The position numbers and the translations under genes are program-made. DNA of 64,000 bases from an uncultured Spirochaetota bacterium (GTDB lineage: Bacteria > Spirochaetota > Spirochaetia > SZUA-6 > Fen-1364). The notes under the pieces are model-generated. The model was given only the letters and a program-made list of their open reading frames with translations, did no database searches and was not told where the DNA came from. The DNA is taken from the NCBI GenBank assembly GCA_963781885.1, contig CAWAHW010000002.1, positions 1,248,001 to 1,312,000 on the forward strand, written 5' to 3'. Within the stretch, counting starts at the first letter, position 1; each line of letters begins with the position of its first letter. Of this stretch, positions 1,369 through 26,317 are shown in pieces.

Positions 1369-4182
1369 GTGTTCTTAAAGACCCTGGAGATCTTCGGATT
1401 CAAATCATTCGCGGACAAGGTTCGTATCGAGTTCACCGACGGCGTGGCGGCTCTGCTCGGGCCGAACGGCTGCGGCAAGAGCAATGTGGTGGACGCCATG
1501 AAGTGGGTGCTCGGCGAGCAGTCCTCGAAGTCGCTGCGCGCGGAGAACATGGTCGACGTCATTTTCGCCGGCTCAGAAACCCGCAAGCCCCTGGGGGTCG
1601 CCGAGGTGACGCTCCTTGTATCGAACCAGGACGAAGTTCTGCCCCTCAACCTCCCCGAGGTTTCCATTCGCCGGCGGCTGTACCGCTCGGGCGAGAGCGA
1701 GTATTTCCTCAACAACAACCCGGTGAAGCTCCGCGACATTCGCGAGCTTTTTTTCGACACCGGCATCGGAAAGTCCGCCTACTCCATCATGGAGCAGGGA
1801 AAGATCGACCAGCTCCTCTCCACGAAGCCGGAGGAGCGGCGGATCGTCTTCGAGGAAGCCGCCGGCATCACGCGCTTTCGGGTGCGCGGCCAGGAGGCGG
1901 AGCGCAAGCTCGAGAAGACCGAAGAGAACATGCGCCACGTCGAGGGCATCCTCGACGAGGTGAAACGCAGCTATACCTCCCTCAAGGCGCAGGCGGAAAA
2001 GGCCGAAGCATACCGCACGTTGAAGGAGCAGATCTTCGAGGTGGAGCTTTCCATCCAGCTCCTCCGTCTGAAGGGGCTCCTCGAGGACAAGAAAAAGAGG
2101 GAAGCACGGCTCTCCGACAAGGAGAAGAATCGCGGCGAGATTGCGCGCGCCATCGCGGGGGTGAATGAAACGATCGCGCGCGAGGCGGACCTCGTGAACG
2201 CGATGGAGTCGCAGCTCGTGGAGTCGCACAAGAAGCTCTACCAGCTCGACATGGAGAAGAGCACCCGCGACAGCCAGATCCACATGTACCGCGAGCGCAT
2301 CACGGAGCTGGAGCGCGGCATCGAAGCGAACACGCTGCGCCAGCAGAACATCCAGCGCAAGATGGAGGAGATGGACGGGGAGGTCGCGCGGAAGAACGAG
2401 GGGCTGGGAGAGCTCACCGCGCGCATTGCCGAGACAGAGAAGAACATCGCCGCTTTTATCGCCGACGTCGAGGGGTTCAGCGAGCGCGTGCGCGCCAACG
2501 ACGCGGAAACACGCGCGAACGGGGAGAAGATACAGGGCAGTGAGGCGGCGATTGAAGACCTGAGGGTCCAGCTCCGCGCCATCACGGAGGACATCGTCAC
2601 GCAGCTGGACGCGCGGCTGAAAGAGATGGGCTATTCGGCAGCGGAACGCCGGTCCGTCGAAGAGTCCATCGCCGAAGCGCTCCAGGGGCTCCGCATCCAG
2701 ATCACGGGCAAGGTGACGATGCTGGAGGACGCATCGCACGTGGACTCCACCGCAAAGCCCCTCCGCGACAAGCTTGTCCAGAGCACCCTCGCGATGCTGA
2801 AGGAATCGCTGGAGAAGCTCACGACGCTGGAAGGCCTCTTCCAGAGGTCCCGCGCTTTCGCGCCATCCTTTCTCGACGAGTTCCTGGCGCCGGAAGGCAT
2901 CATCACCCGCAAGCGGGAGATCGACGAGCGCATCAACGACAGCGCCGCCACGATCGCGCGGCTGCGGCAGCGCAATGAAGAGCTCGCGAAGGAGAATGCG
3001 GGGCTGCGCCAGAAGATCGAAGAGTACCGCAGCACGCTGGAGAATCTCCGCGTCGACCTTGCGCGGCAGCAGACGCAGCGCACCGGCGTGGAGCAGGAGA
3101 TCGCCCGGTTGGGCCGCGAGCGCACCGAGCAGGAAGCGCTCCTCCGCGACGTCGGGGTGGAGATCGCCGACACCCGCACCCGTGTGAAGGAGACGCAGGA
3201 GAAGGCCACCCTCGCGGAAGGCGAACGGCGGCGCATCGAAGAGGACGAAAAGAGCGCCCGCGCCGCTCTGTCGGGGCTGGAAGGGGAGATCGCCAGCCGC
3301 AACAAGGAGCTTTCCACCCGCGAAGAGGAGCTGAAGCAGAAGAACGGTCTCCTGGGAAAGGCGCAGTCGGAGATCGAGAAGATGCAGATCGAGGTGACGG
3401 AGATCCGCACCGAGATCAAGGACCTGCACGCGAACTTCGCCGAGCGCTTCTCCCGCGACCTCTCGGAGTATGAGACGAGGATCCCCGATCTCCAGCCCAA
3501 CCACGATCTTCGGCCGCGCCTCGCGGAGCTGCGGGAGGAGATGCGCAAGCTCGGGCAGATCAACCTCATGGCCCCGGAGGAGTTCGCCGAGGTCAAGGAT
3601 CGCTTCGACTTCCTCACGGGGCAGCTCGGCGACCTCGTGCACGCCCGCGAGGACCTGAAGCGCGTGACGACGGAGATCCGCACGGAGTCCACCGAGCTTT
3701 TCCTCGACACCTACAACAAGATCAAGAAAAACTTTCACACGGTCTTCCGCCGCCTGTTCGGCGGAGGCCGCGCGGAGCTGCGGCTGGAAAACCCCGATGC
3801 GCCGCTCGAATCGGGTATCGAGGTCTTCGCGCAGCCGCCGGGCAAGAAGCTGGAGAACATCAACCTCCTCTCGGGCGGCGAGCGCTCCCTCACGGGCGTC
3901 TCGCTTCTCTTCGCCATTTACATGGTGAAGCCGTCGCCGTTCTGTCTCCTGGACGAGATCGACGCCGCGCTGGATGAGGAGAACGTGGGCCGGCTCGCCA
4001 ACCTGCTGCGGGAGTTTTCCAATCATTCGCAGTTCATCGTCATCACCCATAACAAGCGCACGGTGGCCGGTGCCGATGTGCTGTACGGCGTGACCATGGA
4101 AGAGTCGGGTATCTCGAAGCTCGTCGCGATCCGGCTGGAGAGCAGGGAGAAGAGTGAAGCTGCCCCGGCTGCCGCGCCCTGA
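1369..4182 (+). CDS. smc: Chromosome segregation SMC family ATPase, short form (937 aa)
   Basis: GFKSF, Walker A GPNGCGKSN, signature LSGGE, Walker B LLDEIDAALD, ITH motif, long coiled coils. Confidence 0.95.
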   Translation: MFLKTLEIFGFKSFADKVRIEFTDGVAALLGPNGCGKSNVVDAMKWVLGEQSSKSLRAENMVDVIFAGSETRKPLGVAEVTLLVSNQDEVLPLNLPEVSIRRRLYRSGESEYFLNNNPVKLRDIRELFFDTGIGKSAYSIMEQGKIDQLLSTKPEERRIVFEEAAGITRFRVRGQEAERKLEKTEENMRHVEGILDEVKRSYTSLKAQAEKAEAYRTLKEQIFEVELSIQLLRLKGLLEDKKKREARLSDKEKNRGEIARAIAGVNETIAREADLVNAMESQLVESHKKLYQLDMEKSTRDSQIHMYRERITELERGIEANTLRQQNIQRKMEEMDGEVARKNEGLGELTARIAETEKNIAAFIADVEGFSERVRANDAETRANGEKIQGSEAAIEDLRVQLRAITEDIVTQLDARLKEMGYSAAERRSVEESIAEALQGLRIQITGKVTMLEDASHVDSTAKPLRDKLVQSTLAMLKESLEKLTTLEGLFQRSRAFAPSFLDEFLAPEGIITRKREIDERINDSAATIARLRQRNEELAKENAGLRQKIEEYRSTLENLRVDLARQQTQRTGVEQEIARLGRERTEQEALLRDVGVEIADTRTRVKETQEKATLAEGERRRIEEDEKSARAALSGLEGEIASRNKELSTREEELKQKNGLLGKAQSEIEKMQIEVTEIRTEIKDLHANFAERFSRDLSEYETRIPDLQPNHDLRPRLAELREEMRKLGQINLMAPEEFAEVKDRFDFLTGQLGDLVHAREDLKRVTTEIRTESTELFLDTYNKIKKNFHTVFRRLFGGGRAELRLENPDAPLESGIEVFAQPPGKKLENINLLSGGERSLTGVSLLFAIYMVKPSPFCLLDEIDAALDEENVGRLANLLREFSNHSQFIVITHNKRTVAGADVLYGVTMEESGISKLVAIRLESREKSEAAPAAAP

Positions 4183-6364: not shown

Positions 6365-7546
6365 ATGACGCGACCACTTGCGTGCTGCTCGATTTTTCTC
6401 TGCGCGTGCATTCTCTTCTCCTGCACGACGACCACCCGGGTGCGGGAGACGGGGCCCGTGCGCATCGGCATATACGGCGACCTCAGCTCGACCGGCGCGC
6501 GCGACGGCAACGATGCGTTGAAAGGTGCGGAGGTGCGTGTCGAAGACATCAACGACGCGGGCGGTATCGGCGGGAGGCCCATCGAGCTCTATCCGATCGA
6601 CGTCAAGCAGAGCCCCACGGAAGCGGTCAAGGCGTACACGGCGCTCGTGCAGGAAGACGGCGTCTGCGCCGTGATCGGGTCCACCGTCGCGAACGCGGGG
6701 CTCGCGGTCAGCCCCGTCGCCGATCTCTCGAAGGTGCCGCTCGTCTCGCTTTCCATCGACGACCTGGTGACGAGCCCCGACCTCAAGCCCGATCACCCCG
6801 AGCATCCGGGGACCGTGCGGCCGTTTGCCTTCCTCATCCAGCCCAGCGCGGTGCAGCTGGCTTCAGCCCTGGCCTCCTACGCCGCGGGCAATTTCCTGGT
6901 CACGCGCTATGCAACGTTGTCGGATCCGGCGAACAAGGTGTCCGTCATGCAGGCGCGGGCATTCGAAACGGCCATTTCCAAAGCGGGCAAGGTCGTGGCA
7001 GCATCGCTGTCGTTCGAAGGGGATTTTGCGGCTCTCCTTCCCCGGCTTCGGGACGCCGACGTGGAGGCCCTCTTCGTCTGTGGATCGCAGGAGATGGATC
7101 TCGCCGTCGCGCGCGCGGCACAGGCCGTTTCCTATCGCTCGCTCGTCCTCGGCAACCAGGCGTGGGCGGCGCCGTTCCTGGACAAGGCGGGGGCCGGGCT
7201 TACGGATGTGTGGTTTTGCGCAGGCGTTGCCCCTGATGATGCGGGCGTTGTGGACCTGAGGGCGAGATTCAAGGCCCGTTTCGACGATGAGCCGCGGCCT
7301 GCGGCGGTGCCAGGGTGGGACGCAATCGGTCTTATCGCTGCGGCCGTCCGAAAGGCCGGCTCGTCAAACCCGCAGAAGGTGCGGGATGCGCTGGAGCAGA
7401 CGCTGGGATACAAAGGCCTGACGGGGCAGATCGACATGGATAGAAAGACCCACAAGCCGCTGCAGCTTCCCGTGGCGATCATGCGAATCGTGAGCGGGGC
7501 CTATATGAGCGTGCAGACGCGCTACATTCCGGGGCCGACGAAGTAG
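6365..7546 (+). CDS. ABC transporter substrate-binding lipoprotein (LivJ/LivK-like), no cognate permease nearby
   Basis: Lipobox LFSC; VRIGIYGDLS, INDAGGIGGRPIEL and YKGLTGQIDMD patterns of type 1 periplasmic binding proteins. Confidence 0.85.
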   Translation: MTRPLACCSIFLCACILFSCTTTTRVRETGPVRIGIYGDLSSTGARDGNDALKGAEVRVEDINDAGGIGGRPIELYPIDVKQSPTEAVKAYTALVQEDGVCAVIGSTVANAGLAVSPVADLSKVPLVSLSIDDLVTSPDLKPDHPEHPGTVRPFAFLIQPSAVQLASALASYAAGNFLVTRYATLSDPANKVSVMQARAFETAISKAGKVVAASLSFEGDFAALLPRLRDADVEALFVCGSQEMDLAVARAAQAVSYRSLVLGNQAWAAPFLDKAGAGLTDVWFCAGVAPDDAGVVDLRARFKARFDDEPRPAAVPGWDAIGLIAAAVRKAGSSNPQKVRDALEQTLGYKGLTGQIDMDRKTHKPLQLPVAIMRIVSGAYMSVQTRYIPGPTK

Positions 7547-7571
7547 AAGCTCCTGAACGCATGGCTGGGCG

Positions 7572-8041
7572 AATGCCACCGGGCACGGTGGCCGCAAATG
7601 CCACGGCGTACCGTGGCCGCAAATGCCACGGCGTACCGTGGCCGGTGTGGCTGCGCGAATGCCACCGGGTACGGTGGCCGCAAATGCCACCGGGTACGGT
7701 GGCCGCAAATGCCACGGCGTACCGTGGCCGCAAATGCCACGGCGTACCGTGGCCGCAAATGCCACGGCGTACCGTGGCCGCAAATGCCACGGCGTACCGT
7801 GGCCGCAAATGCCACGGCGTACCGTGGCCGCAAATGCCACGGCGTACCGTGGCCGCAAATGCCACGGCGTACCGTGGCCGCAAATGCCACGGCGTACCGT
7901 GGCCGGTGTGGCTGCGCGAATGCCACCGGGTATGGTGGCCGCAAATGCCACGGCGTACCGTGGCCGCAAATGCCACCGGGTACGGTGGCCGCAAATGCCA
8001 CCGGGTACGGTGGCCGCAAATGCCACGGCGTACCGTGGCCG
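7572..8041. repeat. Tandem array of 18 x 25-bp palindromic hairpin units in two alleles
   Basis: Unit A AAT-GCCACGG-CGTA-CCGTGGC-CGCA (12 copies); unit B AAT-GCCACCG-GGTA-CGGTGGC-CGCA (6 copies, two of them variants). A 13-bp linker GTGTGGCTGCGCG occurs at 7645-7657 and 7906-7918. Confidence 0.97.
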
Positions 8042-8052
8042 GTGTGGCCGGC

Positions 8053-8083
8053 TTGACATGTACCCAGGGGATCGGTATATGTT
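8053..8083 (+). promoter_or_regulatory. Sigma70-type promoter of the ffh operon
   Basis: Perfect TTGACA at 8053-8058; TATATG/TATGTT at 8076-8083. Confidence 0.55.
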
Positions 8084-8116
8084 CGTACGTCTTACACTTA
8101 CGAAGAACGGGTACGA

Positions 8117-9448
8117 ATGCTTGACAGATTGAGCGGCAAGCTTGGCGATCTGATGCGACAGATCGGCGGCAAGGCGCATATCTCCGAAAAAAACATCCAG
8201 GACGCGATCAACGAGGTCAAGATCGCCCTCCTCGAGGCAGACGTCAACCTGCGGGTCGTGCGCCGGTTCGTCAATCAGGCCACGGAGGAAGCGCTCGGGG
8301 AGAAGGTCCTCCGGTCGGTCTCCCCAGGCCAGCAGTTCGTCAAGCTCCTGTACGACAAGATGGTGGCGCTGCTCGGCGGGGAAAACCAGGGGCTTGCGCT
8401 GAAGGGACCCGATACGCAGTCGGTGATCCTGCTCGCGGGGCTCCAGGGCTCGGGCAAGACCACGACTGCGGCAAAGCTTGCGCTTCGCCTGAAAGGGCAG
8501 GGAAGGCGGCCGCTCCTGGTCGCCGCCGACCTCGTGCGCCCTGCCGCCGTGCAGCAGCTCGTCGTGCTGGGGGAGAAGGCCGGCGTCGAGGTCCATCACG
8601 AGGAGGTGACGGACCCCGTCCAGGTGGTGCGGGGCGCGTTGAGCCGTGCGCGCAAGGAACAGTTCGACACGGTCATCGTCGACACGTCGGGCCGGCTCCA
8701 GGCCGACGAGGCGCTCATGGCGGAGCTGGTGCGCATACGCGACGCGGCCAGTCCCGTGGAGGTGCTGCTCGTGGCGGACGCGATGACCGGGCAGAATGCC
8801 GTGGACATCGCGCGCGAGTTCGACGCAAAGGTGACGCTCACGGGCGTCATCCTCACGAAGTTCGATTCCGACACGCGCGGCGGCGCGGCCCTTTCCGTGA
8901 AGAGCATCACCGGAAAGCCCGTCAAGTTCGTGGGCGTCGGGGAGAAGCTCGACGGGCTGGAGGCGTTCCATCCCGCGCGGATCGCGTCGCGCATCCTCGG
9001 CATGGGCGACGTCGTGAGCCTGGTGGAGAAGGCGCAGGCAACGATGGAGCAGGGCGAGGCGGAGCGGCTCCAGGACAAGCTCGCGTCGGAGACGTTCACG
9101 CTGGAGGACATGCTCGACCAGTACCGCCGGATGCGGAAGATGGGAAGCATCCAGTCCATCGTGGAGATGATCCCCGGGCTCAAGGGCTCGGGCGCGGAGG
9201 ACAAGATCGACGAGCAGGGGATGAAGCGGGAAGAGGCCATCATCCTCTCCATGACGCGGGCGGAGCGCCGGAACTACCGGATCATCGGCCCGAAGCGCCG
9301 TACACGCATCGCGCGGGGCAGCGGGACCTCCGTCTTCGAGGTGAACAGGTTCTTGAAAAAATTCGAGAAGACGTGTCTGATGATGAAGAAGATGTCGAAG
9401 AACTCGAAATACCAGGCTCAGGTGCTGTCGCAGCTCGGCGGCTCATAG
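8117..9448 (+). CDS. ffh: Signal recognition particle protein
   Basis: GLQGSGKTT, DTSGR, TKFDSDTRGG, RILGMGD and a Met-rich M domain. Confidence 0.98.
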   Translation: MLDRLSGKLGDLMRQIGGKAHISEKNIQDAINEVKIALLEADVNLRVVRRFVNQATEEALGEKVLRSVSPGQQFVKLLYDKMVALLGGENQGLALKGPDTQSVILLAGLQGSGKTTTAAKLALRLKGQGRRPLLVAADLVRPAAVQQLVVLGEKAGVEVHHEEVTDPVQVVRGALSRARKEQFDTVIVDTSGRLQADEALMAELVRIRDAASPVEVLLVADAMTGQNAVDIAREFDAKVTLTGVILTKFDSDTRGGAALSVKSITGKPVKFVGVGEKLDGLEAFHPARIASRILGMGDVVSLVEKAQATMEQGEAERLQDKLASETFTLEDMLDQYRRMRKMGSIQSIVEMIPGLKGSGAEDKIDEQGMKREEAIILSMTRAERRNYRIIGPKRRTRIARGSGTSVFEVNRFLKKFEKTCLMMKKMSKNSKYQAQVLSQLGGS

Positions 9449-9524
9449 CCAGGGAATGCCGCCAGGAGCGGCAGCGAGGGCGAGGGCGAGCGAGGCCAGG
9501 GAATGCCGTCAGGAACGGCGGCGA
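9448..9524 (+). repeat. Two imperfect direct repeats (47-bp period), each with a CAGGA-loop hairpin
   Basis: GCCAGGGAAT-GCCGC-CAGGA-GCGGC at 9448 and GCCAGGGAAT-GCCGT-CAGGA-ACGGC at 9495. Confidence 0.8.
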
Positions 9525-25114: not shown

Positions 25115-26257
25115 ATGACCCCCTTCAGCCTCGAGATGCCCGCGGCAATTCACTTCGGCAACGGTGCGCTTGAGAAGCTGCCTCACGTGATTGACGGCTT
25201 CGGCGGCCGGGTCCTGCTGGTCGCCGGTTCGGGGTGGTCGTCAGGACCGGGAGGGGAGGCGGCCATCACCGGCAGGCTGGGAAAATGCGTCGTTCATCGC
25301 GTCACCTGTCGCTCCATGGAGCCGACAACCGAGTCGCTGGAGGCAATCGCCCTGTCTGCTGCGGGATTCGGCCCTGACGTCATCCTGGCGGTGGGTGGCG
25401 GGTCGGTCATGGATACCGCGAAGGCGCTTTCCGCACTGCTCCGCTATCCCGGTCCGGCCGAGCGCTTCCTCGAGGGTCTGGAAGGCTCCTGCCCGATCCC
25501 GGGGCCCTGTCTGCCCTGGGTCGCCGTTCCGACCACCGCGGGGACGGGAGCCGAGGCGACAAAAAACGCGGTGGTACGCGCCCTCCGGCTGGGAGTGAAG
25601 CGCAGCATGCGCTCGGCTCATCTCCTGGCACGCGCAGTCATCGTGGACCCCACGCTCACGCTGTCCCTGCCGGCGCGCGTCACCGGCACGTCGGGCCTGG
25701 ATGCGCTCACGCAGCTTGTGGAATCCTATGTCAGCAGGACAAGCACTCCATTCGTGCAGGCCCTCGTGGAGGGCGCATTCCCTGCGATGCTCCATGCCCT
25801 GCAGGGGCTTGCCGACAATCCAGATGACGTCGACCTCCGTTCGGCCGCAAGCTACGGCGCGCTTGTGAGCGGCATCGCGCTCGCCAATGCGGGGCTCGGC
25901 GCGGCGCACGGTTTTGCCGCCGCGATCGGAGGCATGTACGATGTCCCCCATGGACTTGCGTGCGCGGTGCTTCTCCCGCATGTGCTGGAGGCGAACGCGA
26001 CGATCATCGAGGACCGCGTCGCCCATCTTGCGGGCAACCTGTGCGACGCTTCCAGGGGCACGGCGGTCGCCTGGCTTGCCGGGGTGGTCAGATCGATGCT
26101 CGGGGCCTACGGGCTTCCCCAGACGCTGAGAGATTTCCATATCGATCCCGCGTCGATCCCCGAGCTTGCGGAAAGGTCATCCGGCTCCAGCATGCGGGGA
26201 AATCCCCGGGAAATCGGCATGGAGGAGAGGATCGAAATCCTCTCAGCCGTGATATAG
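25115..26257 (+). CDS. Iron-containing alcohol dehydrogenase
   Basis: GGGSVMDTAK, PTTAGTGAEAT, DALTQLVE, LGAAHG, PHG. Confidence 0.93.
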   Translation: MTPFSLEMPAAIHFGNGALEKLPHVIDGFGGRVLLVAGSGWSSGPGGEAAITGRLGKCVVHRVTCRSMEPTTESLEAIALSAAGFGPDVILAVGGGSVMDTAKALSALLRYPGPAERFLEGLEGSCPIPGPCLPWVAVPTTAGTGAEATKNAVVRALRLGVKRSMRSAHLLARAVIVDPTLTLSLPARVTGTSGLDALTQLVESYVSRTSTPFVQALVEGAFPAMLHALQGLADNPDDVDLRSAASYGALVSGIALANAGLGAAHGFAAAIGGMYDVPHGLACAVLLPHVLEANATIIEDRVAHLAGNLCDASRGTAVAWLAGVVRSMLGAYGLPQTLRDFHIDPASIPELAERSSGSSMRGNPREIGMEERIEILSAVI

Positions 26258-26261
26258 GTCG

Positions 26262-26317
26262 GCCACGGTACACCGTGGCTGGGTCTGCCACGGTACACCG
26301 TGGCTGGGTCTGCCACG
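26262..26317. repeat. Second locus of the GCCACGG hairpin repeat (2 full units plus a partial third, 25-bp period)
   Basis: GCCACGG-TACA-CCGTGGC-TGGGTCT at 26262 and 26287; partial GCCACG at 26312. Confidence 0.9.

What the first reader, a model, noticed from the sequence alone, without database searches (positions are those of the whole stretch)
7559..8052. Two-allele hairpin array with compensatory covariation and higher-order blocks, abutting the ffh promoter
Seen: 18 units, each an 18-bp hairpin plus a 7-nt spacer. Allele A (GCCACGG-CGTA-CCGTGGC) and allele B (GCCACCG-GGTA-CGGTGGC) differ by a G-C to C-G swap that keeps the pairing. The only other variants are a loop change (unit 1) and a G.T wobble (unit 14), so no variant breaks the stem on the + strand. 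The order is BAA / BBAAAAAAAA / BABBA. Blocks are separated by GTGTGGCTGCGCG, with degenerate versions at both ends, and every block starts with B and ends with A. The array ends 11 bp before a perfect TTGACA. Inference: the palindrome is under selection, so slippage alone does not explain it. Candidate roles are a REP/BIME-like element propagated by an HUH (RAYT) nuclease, a multivalent protein-binding array, a repeated-hairpin RNA sponge, or a length-variable modulator of the ffh-rplS operon. It is not CRISPR: there are no unique spacers and no cas genes in the window.
Basis: partly seen in the sequence, partly recalled or inferred. Interest (0 to 1): 0.82.

Follow-up and report, generated by a model that had tools for sequence, protein, structure and literature searches.

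The report
REP-like tandem hairpin repeat array
This is the longest copy of a short hairpin-forming DNA repeat scattered between the genes of one genus of uncultured spirochaetes; it resembles the known REP elements but is arranged head to tail, and no gene for the usual REP transposase was found.

Summary
Window 7559-8052 carries 18 head-to-tail units of an 18-bp hairpin, with two stem alleles, in the order BAA/BBAAAAAAAA/BABBA.

It is not a device special to ffh. It is the largest of about 74 intergenic loci in this 4.6-Mb genome. The unit is RAAT + 7-bp stem + NNTA loop + short tail. Each locus has its own loop dinucleotide and spacer.

The family is found in all 20 other genomes searched from this genus. 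It is at background level in 20 genomes of other genera in the order and in 400 other Spirochaetota genomes.

Stems covary at three of seven pairs. Relatives with the same flanking genes and the same TTGACA promoter carry 5-6 units, 2 units or none.

No RAYT gene was found in the 21 genus genomes. The Y1 genes present are ordinary IS200 copies. 158 of 162 neighbouring units are head to tail, unlike REP/BIME.

Unexplained features: whole units nested at one fixed loop position, a 4-nt spacing to TTGAC, and a sense-strand bias of 25:8.

Verdict: a new, RAYT-less, tandem variant of REP-like repeats. Any function is unproven.

The parts
7559..8052 (+). Whole array: 18 head-to-tail hairpin units in three blocks, the largest array of the family in this genome
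7559..7574 (+). Degenerate separator and first RAAT tag (GCATGGCTGGGCGAAT) that opens block 1
7575..7642 (+). Block 1: units 1-3 (B with loop GGCA, then A, A)
7643..7660 (+). Separator CGGTGTGGCTGCGCGAAT. It reads as CGG, then TGTGGC (an arm-like remnant of the kind left by nested units elsewhere), then a spacer and the RAAT tag
7661..7903 (+). Block 2: units 4-13 (B, B, then A x8), period 25
7904..7921 (+). Second separator, identical to the first
7922..8039 (+). Block 3: units 14-18 (B with a G.T wobble at 7922-7939, then A, B, B, A)
8040..8052 (+). Terminal remnant CGGTGTGGCCGGC. It is shared with the orthologous array of relative L014, where the 5' half of the outer hairpin is still present
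8053..8081 (+). Putative ffh promoter, TTGACA-N17-TATATG. It is conserved in relatives with and without an array. It is not part of the repeat
   Evidence: not called by the consensus scan
6365..7546 (+). Upstream gene: periplasmic solute-binding protein (Peripla_BP_6). The array lies 28 nt after its stop codon, in the sense orientation
8117..9448 (+). ffh (SRP54_N, SRP54 GTPase and SRP_SPB domains)
26257..26317 (-). Second, small array of the same family in the window: 2 units plus a partial one, GCCACGG-TGTA-CCGTGGC on the minus strand, with no AAT tag
9455..9519 (+). Two units of the sister subfamily (AAT + 5-bp stem + CAGGA loop), starting 7 nt after the ffh stop codon

Best explanation
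The array is one locus, the largest, of a genus-restricted family of REP-like non-coding hairpin repeats.

The unit is about 25 nt. It has a 5' RAAT tag, a 7-bp G+C-rich stem, a 4-nt loop NNTA and a 2-6-nt tail (usually CGC or CGG).

Shown here:
- The family is dispersed over about 74 almost wholly intergenic loci.
- Each locus has its own loop dinucleotide and spacer.
- Units stand head to tail.
- Unit number differs between species at orthologous loci.
- Stems stay complementary through double changes.

Inferred:
- A founder unit is placed in non-coding DNA by an unknown insertion process that depends on single-stranded DNA or on the hairpin.
- The locus then grows, shrinks and is homogenised by whole units, through replication slippage or unequal recombination. 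The block structure here (B...A + CGGTGTGGC separator, three times) would be a higher-order duplication of a nested founder that is still visible in relative L014.
- Complementarity is kept either by selection for the hairpin or by hairpin-templated correction.

At this locus the array fills the gap between the stop codon of a solute-binding-protein gene and a pre-existing ffh promoter. The ffh promoter does not need it.

If transcribed, it would form up to 18 stem-loops on the 3' tail of the upstream mRNA. These have no U-tract, so they are not classical terminators. Any stabilising or insulating effect is a side effect or at most a secondary use, and is untested.
For: Family and dispersal:
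- 153 exact motif hits in 55 clusters on all 7 contigs.
- 186 perfect hairpins of the form N4-CNG-NNTA-CNG-N4, of which 154 are preceded by AAT.
- 74 loci: 40 single units and 34 arrays of 2-16 units.

Locus-specific loops and spacers, periods 23-36 with a mode of 25 (58 of 158 head-to-tail neighbours).

Head to tail: 158 of 162 neighbour pairs; 1 mixed locus of 74.

Genus restriction:
- The relaxed motif is in 20 of 20 congeneric genomes, 1-97 copies each, against 168 in this genome.
- It occurs at most once in each of 20 genomes of other genera of the family and order.
- It occurs at most twice in each of 400 other genomes of the phylum, which is the level of the reversed control pattern.
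- It has 0 matches in viral contigs.

Turnover at orthologous loci:
- ffh locus: 18 units here, 5-6 in L014, 2 of another subtype in L018, none in L015 or L017, with the promoter kept in all.
- C7:145679: 4 units against 1. C2:798804: 1 unit against at least 4. C7:105123: 3 units against 1.
- C4:649005: 3 units against 1.5. The rRNA spacer array is absent in G014.

Covariation: 95.9% of cells paired against 84.8% in shuffles; three of seven pairs change on both sides; pair 6 shows GC, CG, UA and AU.

A discrete insertable unit: 7 of the 11 candidate nested structures found in G000, plus 1 in L014, have RAAT-hairpin-CGG (CAG in one) sitting exactly between the loop's TAC and the last 6 nt of the outer 3' arm, which still complements the outer 5' arm with 0-1 mismatch.

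Not coding, not a known RNA, not a terminator: the period of 25 is not a multiple of 3 and the array is absent in relatives; Rfam gives only a sub-threshold radC hit, 25.1 bits against a gathering score of 40; no U-tract terminator was found.
Against: - No enzyme was identified. No RAYT was found in the genus. No gene is flanked by inverted units except a glycosyltransferase gene and flagellar genes. IS200 end hairpins do not pick out the arrays in a BLAST of the genome. Y1 gene counts do not follow unit counts across genomes: G002 has 60 units and 0 Y1, G016 has 1 unit and 2 Y1, G023 has 0 units and 5 Y1.
- No insertion was caught between near-identical strains. The best metagenome relatives with long alignments are at most 88% identical. 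Mobility is therefore inferred, not shown.
- The strict nested pattern occurs only in G000 (3 copies) and G005 (4 copies) of 41 genomes. The nested copies may descend from a few composite founders rather than from many independent insertions.
- Three features hint at function or strong positional constraint rather than neutral junk:
  1. A sense bias between co-directional genes of 25:8, binomial p = 0.0046 (based on my own rough gene calls).
  2. TTGAC within 30 nt 3' of 11 of 74 loci, against a 2.6% background, p = 3.7e-6.
  3. Across the genus, a gap of exactly 4 nt between hairpin and TTGAC in 23 of 54 cases.
- Some loci are occupied in species that are only about 86-88% identical.
Confidence: 0.7

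Rival explanations
1. A selected RNA-level element. The hairpin stack is kept in the sense orientation in transcribed spacers (3' tails, intercistronic gaps, 5' leaders, the rRNA spacer). There it would protect upstream mRNA from 3' exonucleases or tune read-through, as described for some REPs.
For: - Sense bias of 25:8 between co-directional genes, with no link to GC skew.
- Arrays lie in places that must be transcribed: between a stop codon and the next ribosome-binding site (C2:502162), between a promoter and a ribosome-binding site (C7:105123), and in the 16S-tRNA spacer.
- In the antisense orientation each hairpin would be followed by AUUU, which is terminator-like. That could explain why this orientation is avoided.
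- Stems covary.
Against: - Relatives with the same genes lack the array.
- Unit number ranges from 0 to 18 at one locus.
- 15% of tagged units carry a stem mismatch.
- The sister subfamily shows no orientation bias, 9:9.
- No expression data exist.
- The gene calls behind the 25:8 count are my own rough ones.
Confidence: 0.2
2. A DNA-level platform at promoters. The palindromes (or extruded hairpins) bind a genus-specific protein just upstream of the -35 hexamer and insulate or modulate the promoter, here that of ffh.
For: - TTGAC is enriched 3' of arrays: 11 of 74 loci against a 2.6% background.
- A fixed 4-nt gap in 23 of 54 promoter-proximal copies across 16 genomes.
- Divergent intergenic regions hold 28 of 74 loci, against 573 of 2424 genome-wide.
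Against: - Most loci (63 of 74) have no TTGAC within 30 nt 3' of the array. Many abut ribosome-binding sites or stop codons instead.
- The promoter is intact without the array in relatives.
- Perfect compensatory changes fit base pairing better than recognition of half-sites by a dimer.
- The one-sided AAT tag and NNTA loop make the unit asymmetric.
- No candidate protein was found.
Confidence: 0.08
3. An assembly artefact: the tandem array was inflated or mis-ordered by the assembler.
For: No read or contig bridging the array could be obtained. Copy number in 25-nt tandem repeats is error-prone.
Against: - Short contigs from an independent public run match the left flank at 7165-7569 with 0-1 differences. 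55-nt pieces match inside the array with 0-2 differences.
- The same family, with arrays of up to 9 units, is present at dozens of other loci and in all congeneric genomes searched.
- An orthologous array sits at the same site in L014.
Confidence: 0.03
4. A repeated-hairpin RNA sponge that titrates an RNA-binding protein, in the manner of CsrB or RsmZ.
For: - The layout is many near-identical stem-loops in a row.
- The sister subfamily has CAGGA loops, which resemble CsrA sites (my recollection of the CsrA motif).
- A csrA gene is present.
Against: - Loops of this array are NNTA, with the two free bases differing between loci, so there is no conserved loop motif beyond TA.
- There is no dedicated promoter or terminator around the arrays.
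- Arrays are scattered in mRNA spacers rather than forming one or two sRNA genes.
- The sister subfamily also carries CAGCA loops (12 against 34 CAGGA).
Confidence: 0.03

Closest known systems
REP / BIME elements with RAYT transposases (gammaproteobacteria; Nunvar 2010, PMC2817692, passages read; Di Nocera 2013, PMC3733652, abstract, passages and sections 6 and 14 read)
   Same: - Short (20-40 bp) G+C-rich extragenic palindromes in about 10^2 copies.
- An unpaired conserved tag at the 5' foot.
- Clustered.
- Species- or genus-specific.
- Palindromy kept through complementary changes.
- Variable between relatives.
   Different: - The tag is RAAT(G), not GTAG.
- Neighbours are head to tail in 158 of 162 pairs. 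REPs form head-to-head or tail-to-tail dimers or alternating BIMEs; head-to-tail dimers are called negligible for CGTC repeats in PMC3733652.
- Spacers are only 6-18 nt.
- No RAYT was found in any of the 21 genus genomes searched.
CGTC-tagged REPs (Di Nocera 2013, PMC3733652, section 6 read)
   Same: A REP super-family with no dedicated transposase. It is reported from five phyla including Spirochaetes, with 4-5-nt loops and short unpaired tails.
   Different: Those elements have a CGTC tag, 8-9-bp stems that begin with A-T pairs, and mostly head-to-head dimers. Here the tag is AAT, the stem is 7 bp and all G+C apart from one A-T pair, and units stand in tandem.
Tandem REP arrays of Pseudomonas fluorescens SBW25 (Bertels and Rainey 2011, PMC3116915, passages read)
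   Same: Ordered tandem arrays of REPs of up to 12 units. REPINs are also seen inserted into or next to existing ones.
   Different: Spacing there is 72 and 112 bp and two REP groups alternate. RAYT genes are present next to clusters. Here the period is about 25 bp, one unit type is repeated, and no RAYT was found.
End hairpins of IS200/IS605 elements and their mini-derivatives
   Same: A G+C-rich hairpin with conserved bases 5' of its foot. IS200 copies exist in this genome, with end stems CCACCGCC that share CCACCG with allele B.
   Different: A BLAST of the IS ends against the genome does not find the arrays above chance 12-13-mers. IS200 presence does not follow unit abundance.
CRISPR arrays
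   Same: Regularly spaced palindromic direct repeats.
   Different: The 'spacers' are 7 nt long and identical to each other. There are no unique spacers. The family sits at about 74 loci. True CRISPR-like repeats of another sequence appear to lie elsewhere in the genome (not followed up).

Membership tests
REP (repetitive extragenic palindrome) in the broad sense | Short (20-40 bp) G+C-rich imperfect palindrome, many copies, extragenic | tested here: met
   An 18-bp hairpin within a unit of about 25 nt. 186 perfect copies at 74 loci. After masking, the rough gene calls place nearly all of them between genes.
REP, GTAG or CGTC super-families (PMC3733652) | Unpaired GTAG or CGTC tag at one end | tested here: not met
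   154 of 186 units are preceded by AAT, as RAAT followed by the G of the stem. Neither strand of the units parsed carries a GTAG or CGTC tag.
REP/RAYT system (REPtron) | A RAYT gene (NF047646) in the genome, flanked by two inverted REPs | tested here: not met
   Best RAYT scores are 38.3 and 35 bits against a cut-off of 80, and the same proteins score 150.6 and 147.1 bits as IS200. No other hit in the genome. 0 of 21 genus genomes at E <= 1e-10. The only genes between inverted units are a glycosyltransferase gene and flagellar genes. Caveats: the genome is 92.55% complete and 16 kb are withheld.
BIME | Regularly spaced REPs in alternating orientation | tested here: not met
   158 head-to-tail, 4 head-to-head and 0 tail-to-tail among 162 neighbour pairs.
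CRISPR | Unique spacers of about 30 nt between the repeats | tested here: not met
   Spacers are the 7-nt CGCAAAT, repeated.
Intrinsic terminator | G+C-rich hairpin followed by a U-tract | tested here: not met
   0 terminator-like sites in 7300-8300 on either strand. On the sense strand each hairpin is followed by CGCAAAT.
Known RNA family (Rfam 15) | A match at or above a family's gathering score | tested here: not met
   Only radC RNA on the minus strand, 25.1 bits against 40, E = 0.056.
Mini-element derived from IS200/IS605 | Ends that match the hairpins of a resident IS200/IS605 copy | tested here: inconclusive
   The stems share CCACCG. However, no array appears among the top non-self hits of the IS ends.

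The most novel reading that the evidence does not exclude
The 25-nt unit is a minimal mobile element of a new kind. It would be copied into single-stranded or hairpin DNA at defined positions: after TAC in the loop of another unit, and one base 5' of TTGAC promoter hexamers. The enzyme would be a host or unrecognised one that is not a RAYT. Insertion into its own loop would be what builds the head-to-tail arrays. On this reading the conserved RAAT tag and the TA(C) of the loop are the recognition and cleavage signals.
Probability: 0.15. Interest if true: 0.75.

Novelty: new variant of a known kind. Interest (0 to 1): 0.5.

Why it matters
REP-type repeats are known mainly from Proteobacteria, and their spread is tied to RAYT transposases.

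Here a whole genus of uncultured Spirochaetota carries a comparable hairpin family with a different tag, a strictly head-to-tail tandem layout and no RAYT gene found. That reopens the question of how such repeats arise and spread when no dedicated transposase is present.

Two features give concrete handles on that question: whole units nested at one fixed loop position, and the 4-nt spacing to -35 hexamers.

There are also practical consequences.
- The arrays are likely break points in short-read assemblies. Several matches lie within 50 nt of contig ends.
- They create spurious long ORFs.
- They could serve as strain markers.

For ffh itself the finding is a caution. The array beside its promoter is a passenger of a genome-wide family, not evidence of special regulation.

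Tried and rejected
- **RAYT or another HUH enzyme.** PF01797 finds 5 Y1 genes. Four sit in identical 577-bp elements and one is divergent. Both types score as the IS200 equivalog, not as RAYT. NF047646 finds nothing else in the genome and nothing in the genus. Y2_Tnp has no hit, but that search's control rang nowhere, so it says nothing. The TnpB-type zinc ribbon has no hit.
- **An IS110-family element in 8 copies**. None of the eight copies has a family unit in the 70 nt shown at its left boundary; the right-hand junctions were not reached, because the boundary was cut short by the copy that runs into withheld bases.
- **IS200 ends as the source of the units.** By eye, CCACCG is shared. BLAST of the ends does not recover the arrays. 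Rejected as unsupported.
- **A replication-strand explanation of orientation.** GC skew is weak and arrays split 23:21 and 15:15.
- **Promoter-terminator coupling** as in the preprint 10.64898/2026.08.19.745784 (abstract and section 5 read). There the termination site lies about 10 bp upstream of the start site. Here the hairpins lie upstream of the -35 hexamer and have no U-tract. It does not fit.
- **A protein-coding reading of the long ORFs across the array**. Rejected because the period is 25 and the segment is absent in relatives.
- **A uniquely folded RNA.** The minimum free energy is -299.4 kcal/mol against -273.5 +/- 7.0 in shuffles, z = -3.7. Identical arms also pair across units, so the fold adds little.
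- **Expression.** No RNA holder was listed among the public runs.
- **Read support.** Contigs from two DNA runs were laid on the region. None bridges the array.
- **Exact filled and empty sites in near-identical strains.** 80 metagenome loci were fetched. 41 of them hit G000. None is above 94% identical, and long alignments are at most 88% identical.
- **Literature.** Three full-text searches listed no paper that describes AAT-tagged head-to-tail hairpin arrays in Spirochaetota. The library is limited and supplements are closed, so this is not proof that it is unpublished.
Full report
**Observation.** Window 7559-8052 was read directly. It holds 18 units of an 18-bp hairpin with a 7-nt spacer.

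Seventeen units fit GCCACSG-N4-CSGTGGC. The window has 19 matches in all, against 0.00 expected in 100 shuffles. The other two matches lie at 26262 and 26287. The 18th unit, at 7922-7939, has a G.T wobble.

Parsing gives the order B* A A | B B A x8 | B(wobble) A B B A. The separators CGGTGTGGCTGCGCGAAT lie at 7643-7660 and 7904-7921, with degenerate copies at both ends. TRF reports period 25 with up to 98% matches.

TTGACA is at 8053-8058. That is 13 nt after the last hairpin, or 4 nt after the terminal arm remnant, rather than 11 bp. The flanking genes are a Peripla_BP_6 solute-binding protein and Ffh.

**It is a family, not a single device.** In the genome that holds the window (4.64 Mb, 7 contigs, 63% G+C) the exact motif occurs 153 times in 55 clusters.

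A wider definition asks for any perfect 7-bp stem ending in CNG, with loop NNTA. It gives 186 units. The stems are GCCACGG (118), GCCACCG (22), GACGCGG (13), GTCACGG (6), GCCACTG (4), GCCGCGG (4) and rarer ones. 154 of the 186 are preceded by AAT.

The units fall into 74 loci: 40 singles and 34 arrays. The window's array is the largest.

Every array has its own loop dinucleotide and its own spacer. Arrays therefore grow locally from a founder unit. Neighbouring units are head to tail in 158 of 162 pairs, and the commonest period is 25.

A sister subfamily has the same AAT tag and similar basal stems, but a 5-bp stem and a CAGGA or CAGCA loop. It has 50 units at 32 loci. Two of these units lie 7 nt after the ffh stop codon.

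**Where the units lie.** I made rough gene calls of my own, based on GC3. With these, nearly all loci are intergenic. Apparent 'inside gene' cases are ORFs that run on through the arrays.

Between co-directional genes the tagged strand is the sense strand in 25 cases and the antisense strand in 8 (binomial p = 0.0046). There is no relation to GC skew, which is weak in this genome.

Arrays occur in every kind of non-coding spacer:
- after stop codons;
- between a stop codon and the next ribosome-binding site;
- between a promoter and a ribosome-binding site;
- in the 16S-tRNA spacer of an rRNA operon;
- immediately upstream of -35 hexamers.

The last case is more than chance. TTGAC lies within 30 nt 3' of 11 of 74 loci, against 2.6% of random intergenic positions (p = 3.7e-6), and on the other side in only 3 of 74.

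Across 21 genomes of the genus, TACCGTGGC-N(0-16)-TTGAC occurs 54 times, against 8 for the reversed control pattern. The gap is exactly 4 nt in 23 of the 54.

**Stems.** I took 45 distinct units from the window and fetched loci. They were chosen by their 5' half only, so pairing did not bias the choice.

On these units, 95.9% of cells pair, against 84.8% in shuffles. 28 cells differ from the commonest pair on both sides, against 5.3 expected. In both cases 0 of 500 shuffles reach the observed value. Sliding the partner by 1-3 columns destroys the signal.

Pair 2 shows CG, AU and UA. Pair 4 shows AU and GC. Pair 6 shows all four Watson-Crick pairs.

The orthologous ffh array of relative L014 uses GCCACTG/CAGTGGC where this genome uses G-C or C-G.

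Stem-breaking variants do exist. 27 of 181 AAT-tagged units have one mismatch, and 5 of those are G.T. A 5'-arm-defined set gives 154 perfect units, 32 with one mismatch and 5 with two.

Covariation shows that the arms pair, or are copied from one another, in vivo. It does not by itself show selection. Template switching within quasi-palindromes gives the same pattern. That mechanism is recalled from the literature and was not tested here.

**Nested units.** In 7 of the 11 candidate places found in this genome, and in L014, a complete RAAT-hairpin-CGG unit (CAG in one; 25 nt) sits exactly between the TAC of another unit's loop and the remaining 6 nt of that unit's 3' arm. That remainder still complements the outer 5' arm with 0-1 mismatch.

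The window's separators and its terminal CGGTGTGGC are of this form: CGG followed by an arm-like remnant. In L014 the outer 5' half (AAATGCCACTGGGTAC) is still present in front of the last unit.

This explains the 'higher-order blocks'. They are duplicates of a nested founder.

The strict nested pattern was found only in G000 (3 copies) and G005 (4 copies) of 41 genomes. It may therefore descend from a few composite founders rather than from many independent insertions.

**Distribution and turnover.** Record titles of the closest ffh loci place the organism among uncultured Spirochaetota.

The relaxed motif AATGNCNCNGNNTACNGNGNC has 168 copies here and 1-97 copies in all 20 congeneric genomes. 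It occurs at most once in each of 20 genomes of other genera of the family and order. It occurs at most twice in each of 400 other genomes of the phylum, which is the level of the reversed control. It has no match in viral contigs. Counts in short-read MAGs are lower bounds, because several matches touch contig ends.

At the ffh locus, L015 and L017 keep the same upstream gene and the same promoter with no array. L014 has 5-6 units and L018 has 2 units of the sister type.

Other orthologous loci differ in the same way: 4 against 1, 1 against at least 4, 3 against 1, and 3 against 1.5 units. The rRNA-spacer array is absent in G014.

**Enzyme.** The five Y1 genes are IS200 copies. They score 150.6 and 147.1 bits as the IS200 equivalog, and 38.3 and 35 bits for RAYT against a cut-off of 80.

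RAYT-like genes do occur in other families of the order, but in 0 of the 21 genomes of this genus.

Y1 counts do not follow unit counts. IS ends do not retrieve the arrays. No transposase gene lies between inverted units.

The genome is 92.55% complete and 16 kb are withheld, so a gene could have been missed.

**Comparison with what is known.** The family meets the broad definition of REPs. It fails the features that define the described super-families and the REP/RAYT system:
- the tag is AAT, not GTAG or CGTC;
- there is no RAYT;
- units are in head-to-tail tandem arrays with spacers of 6-18 nt, instead of head-to-head or tail-to-tail dimers or alternating BIMEs.

The sources for these comparisons are PMC3733652 (abstract, passages and sections 6 and 14 read) and PMC2817692 (passages read).

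Tandem REP arrays exist in P. fluorescens SBW25, but with 72 and 112-bp spacing and with RAYTs present (PMC3116915, passages read).

The array is not CRISPR, not a terminator and not a known Rfam family.

**Verdict.** The REP-like reading is right in kind. The RAYT, BIME and ffh-regulator readings are not supported.

The array is best seen as the largest local amplification of a genus-specific, RAYT-less, tandem hairpin repeat. The insertion mechanism is unknown.

The fixed nesting site, the fixed spacing to TTGAC and the sense bias are real and unexplained. They keep open both a new insertion mechanism and a secondary role at the RNA or promoter level.

Noticed in passing
window 9455-9519: Two units of a sister subfamily start 7 nt after the ffh stop codon: AAT + GCCGC/GCCGT stem + CAGGA loop. 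Genome-wide there are 50 such units at 32 loci (34 CAGGA loops, 12 CAGCA), with no orientation bias (9:9).
   Followed up: partly
G000:C4:639326-639460 (locus L105 about 3237-3467): Six tandem 24-nt units of the CAGGA subfamily, plus a nested hairpin, lie in the spacer between a tRNA and the 16S gene of an rRNA operon, in the sense orientation. The orthologous spacer of G014 has no such units. The rRNA genes themselves are about 95% identical between these species.
   Followed up: partly
G000:C4:176690-176848: A csrA gene is present (84.9 bits). The CAGGA-loop hairpins look like CsrA sites (my recollection of the motif), but nothing was tested.
   Followed up: no
window 26257-26317: A second small array of the same family lies on the minus strand: 2 units plus a partial one, loop TGTA, spacer AGACCCA, and no AAT tag.
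   Followed up: partly
G000:C2:1128940, C2:1141082, C4:799806, C6:11014 and C5:309402 (loci L001-L005): Four copies of a 577-bp IS200 element, three of them identical and one about 99.4% identical, and one divergent copy. Each carries only tnpA. The end hairpins are CCACCGCC-TAT-GGCGGTGG and CCACC(G/T)CC-TC(A/T)-GG(C/A)GGTGG.
   Followed up: yes
G000: eight places, e.g. C3:73314, C4:285473, C7:156088: An IS110-family element of about 1.6 kb in 8 near-identical copies. In six of the eight copies the left flank carries GTCAA(A/G) or GACAAG (the complement of TTGAC-like -35 hexamers) about 17-20 nt from the junction. This suggests insertion into promoters.
   Followed up: partly
G000:C7:36941 and TRF rows with periods 65-67 and 131-135: A repeat GTTTCAATCCACGCGCCCGCGCGGGGCGCAC, and 416 hairpins preceded by TCCA, suggest true CRISPR arrays elsewhere in the genome.
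   Followed up: no
G000:C2:626171-626313: A 6-unit array ends 12 nt before TTGACA. A sequence that looks like the start of a tRNA gene follows (GGGCCGCTAGCTCAGTTGGTAGAGCAG); this was judged by eye and not scanned.
   Followed up: no
window 7922-7939 and L014:3860-3884: The same rare variant, C to T at the first base of the 3' arm (GGGTAT), occurs in unit 14 here and in one unit of the orthologous array of L014. It could be shared ancestry or a recurrent change.
   Followed up: no
G000:C4, next to 160662: The 16 kb of withheld bases (N) begin right beside one IS110 copy. Three hairpin arrays lie within the next 8 kb (162187, 164537, 168077).
   Followed up: no
G000, e.g. C2:725606-725761, C2:1359540-1359640, C2:1410092-1410228: Other tandem repeats of 23-27-nt period with hairpin potential but no NNTA loop (for example ACCGGCCGCGAGCCTGCGGCATTCTCT, 5.8 copies). 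They may be further subfamilies with the ATT/AAT tag.
   Followed up: no
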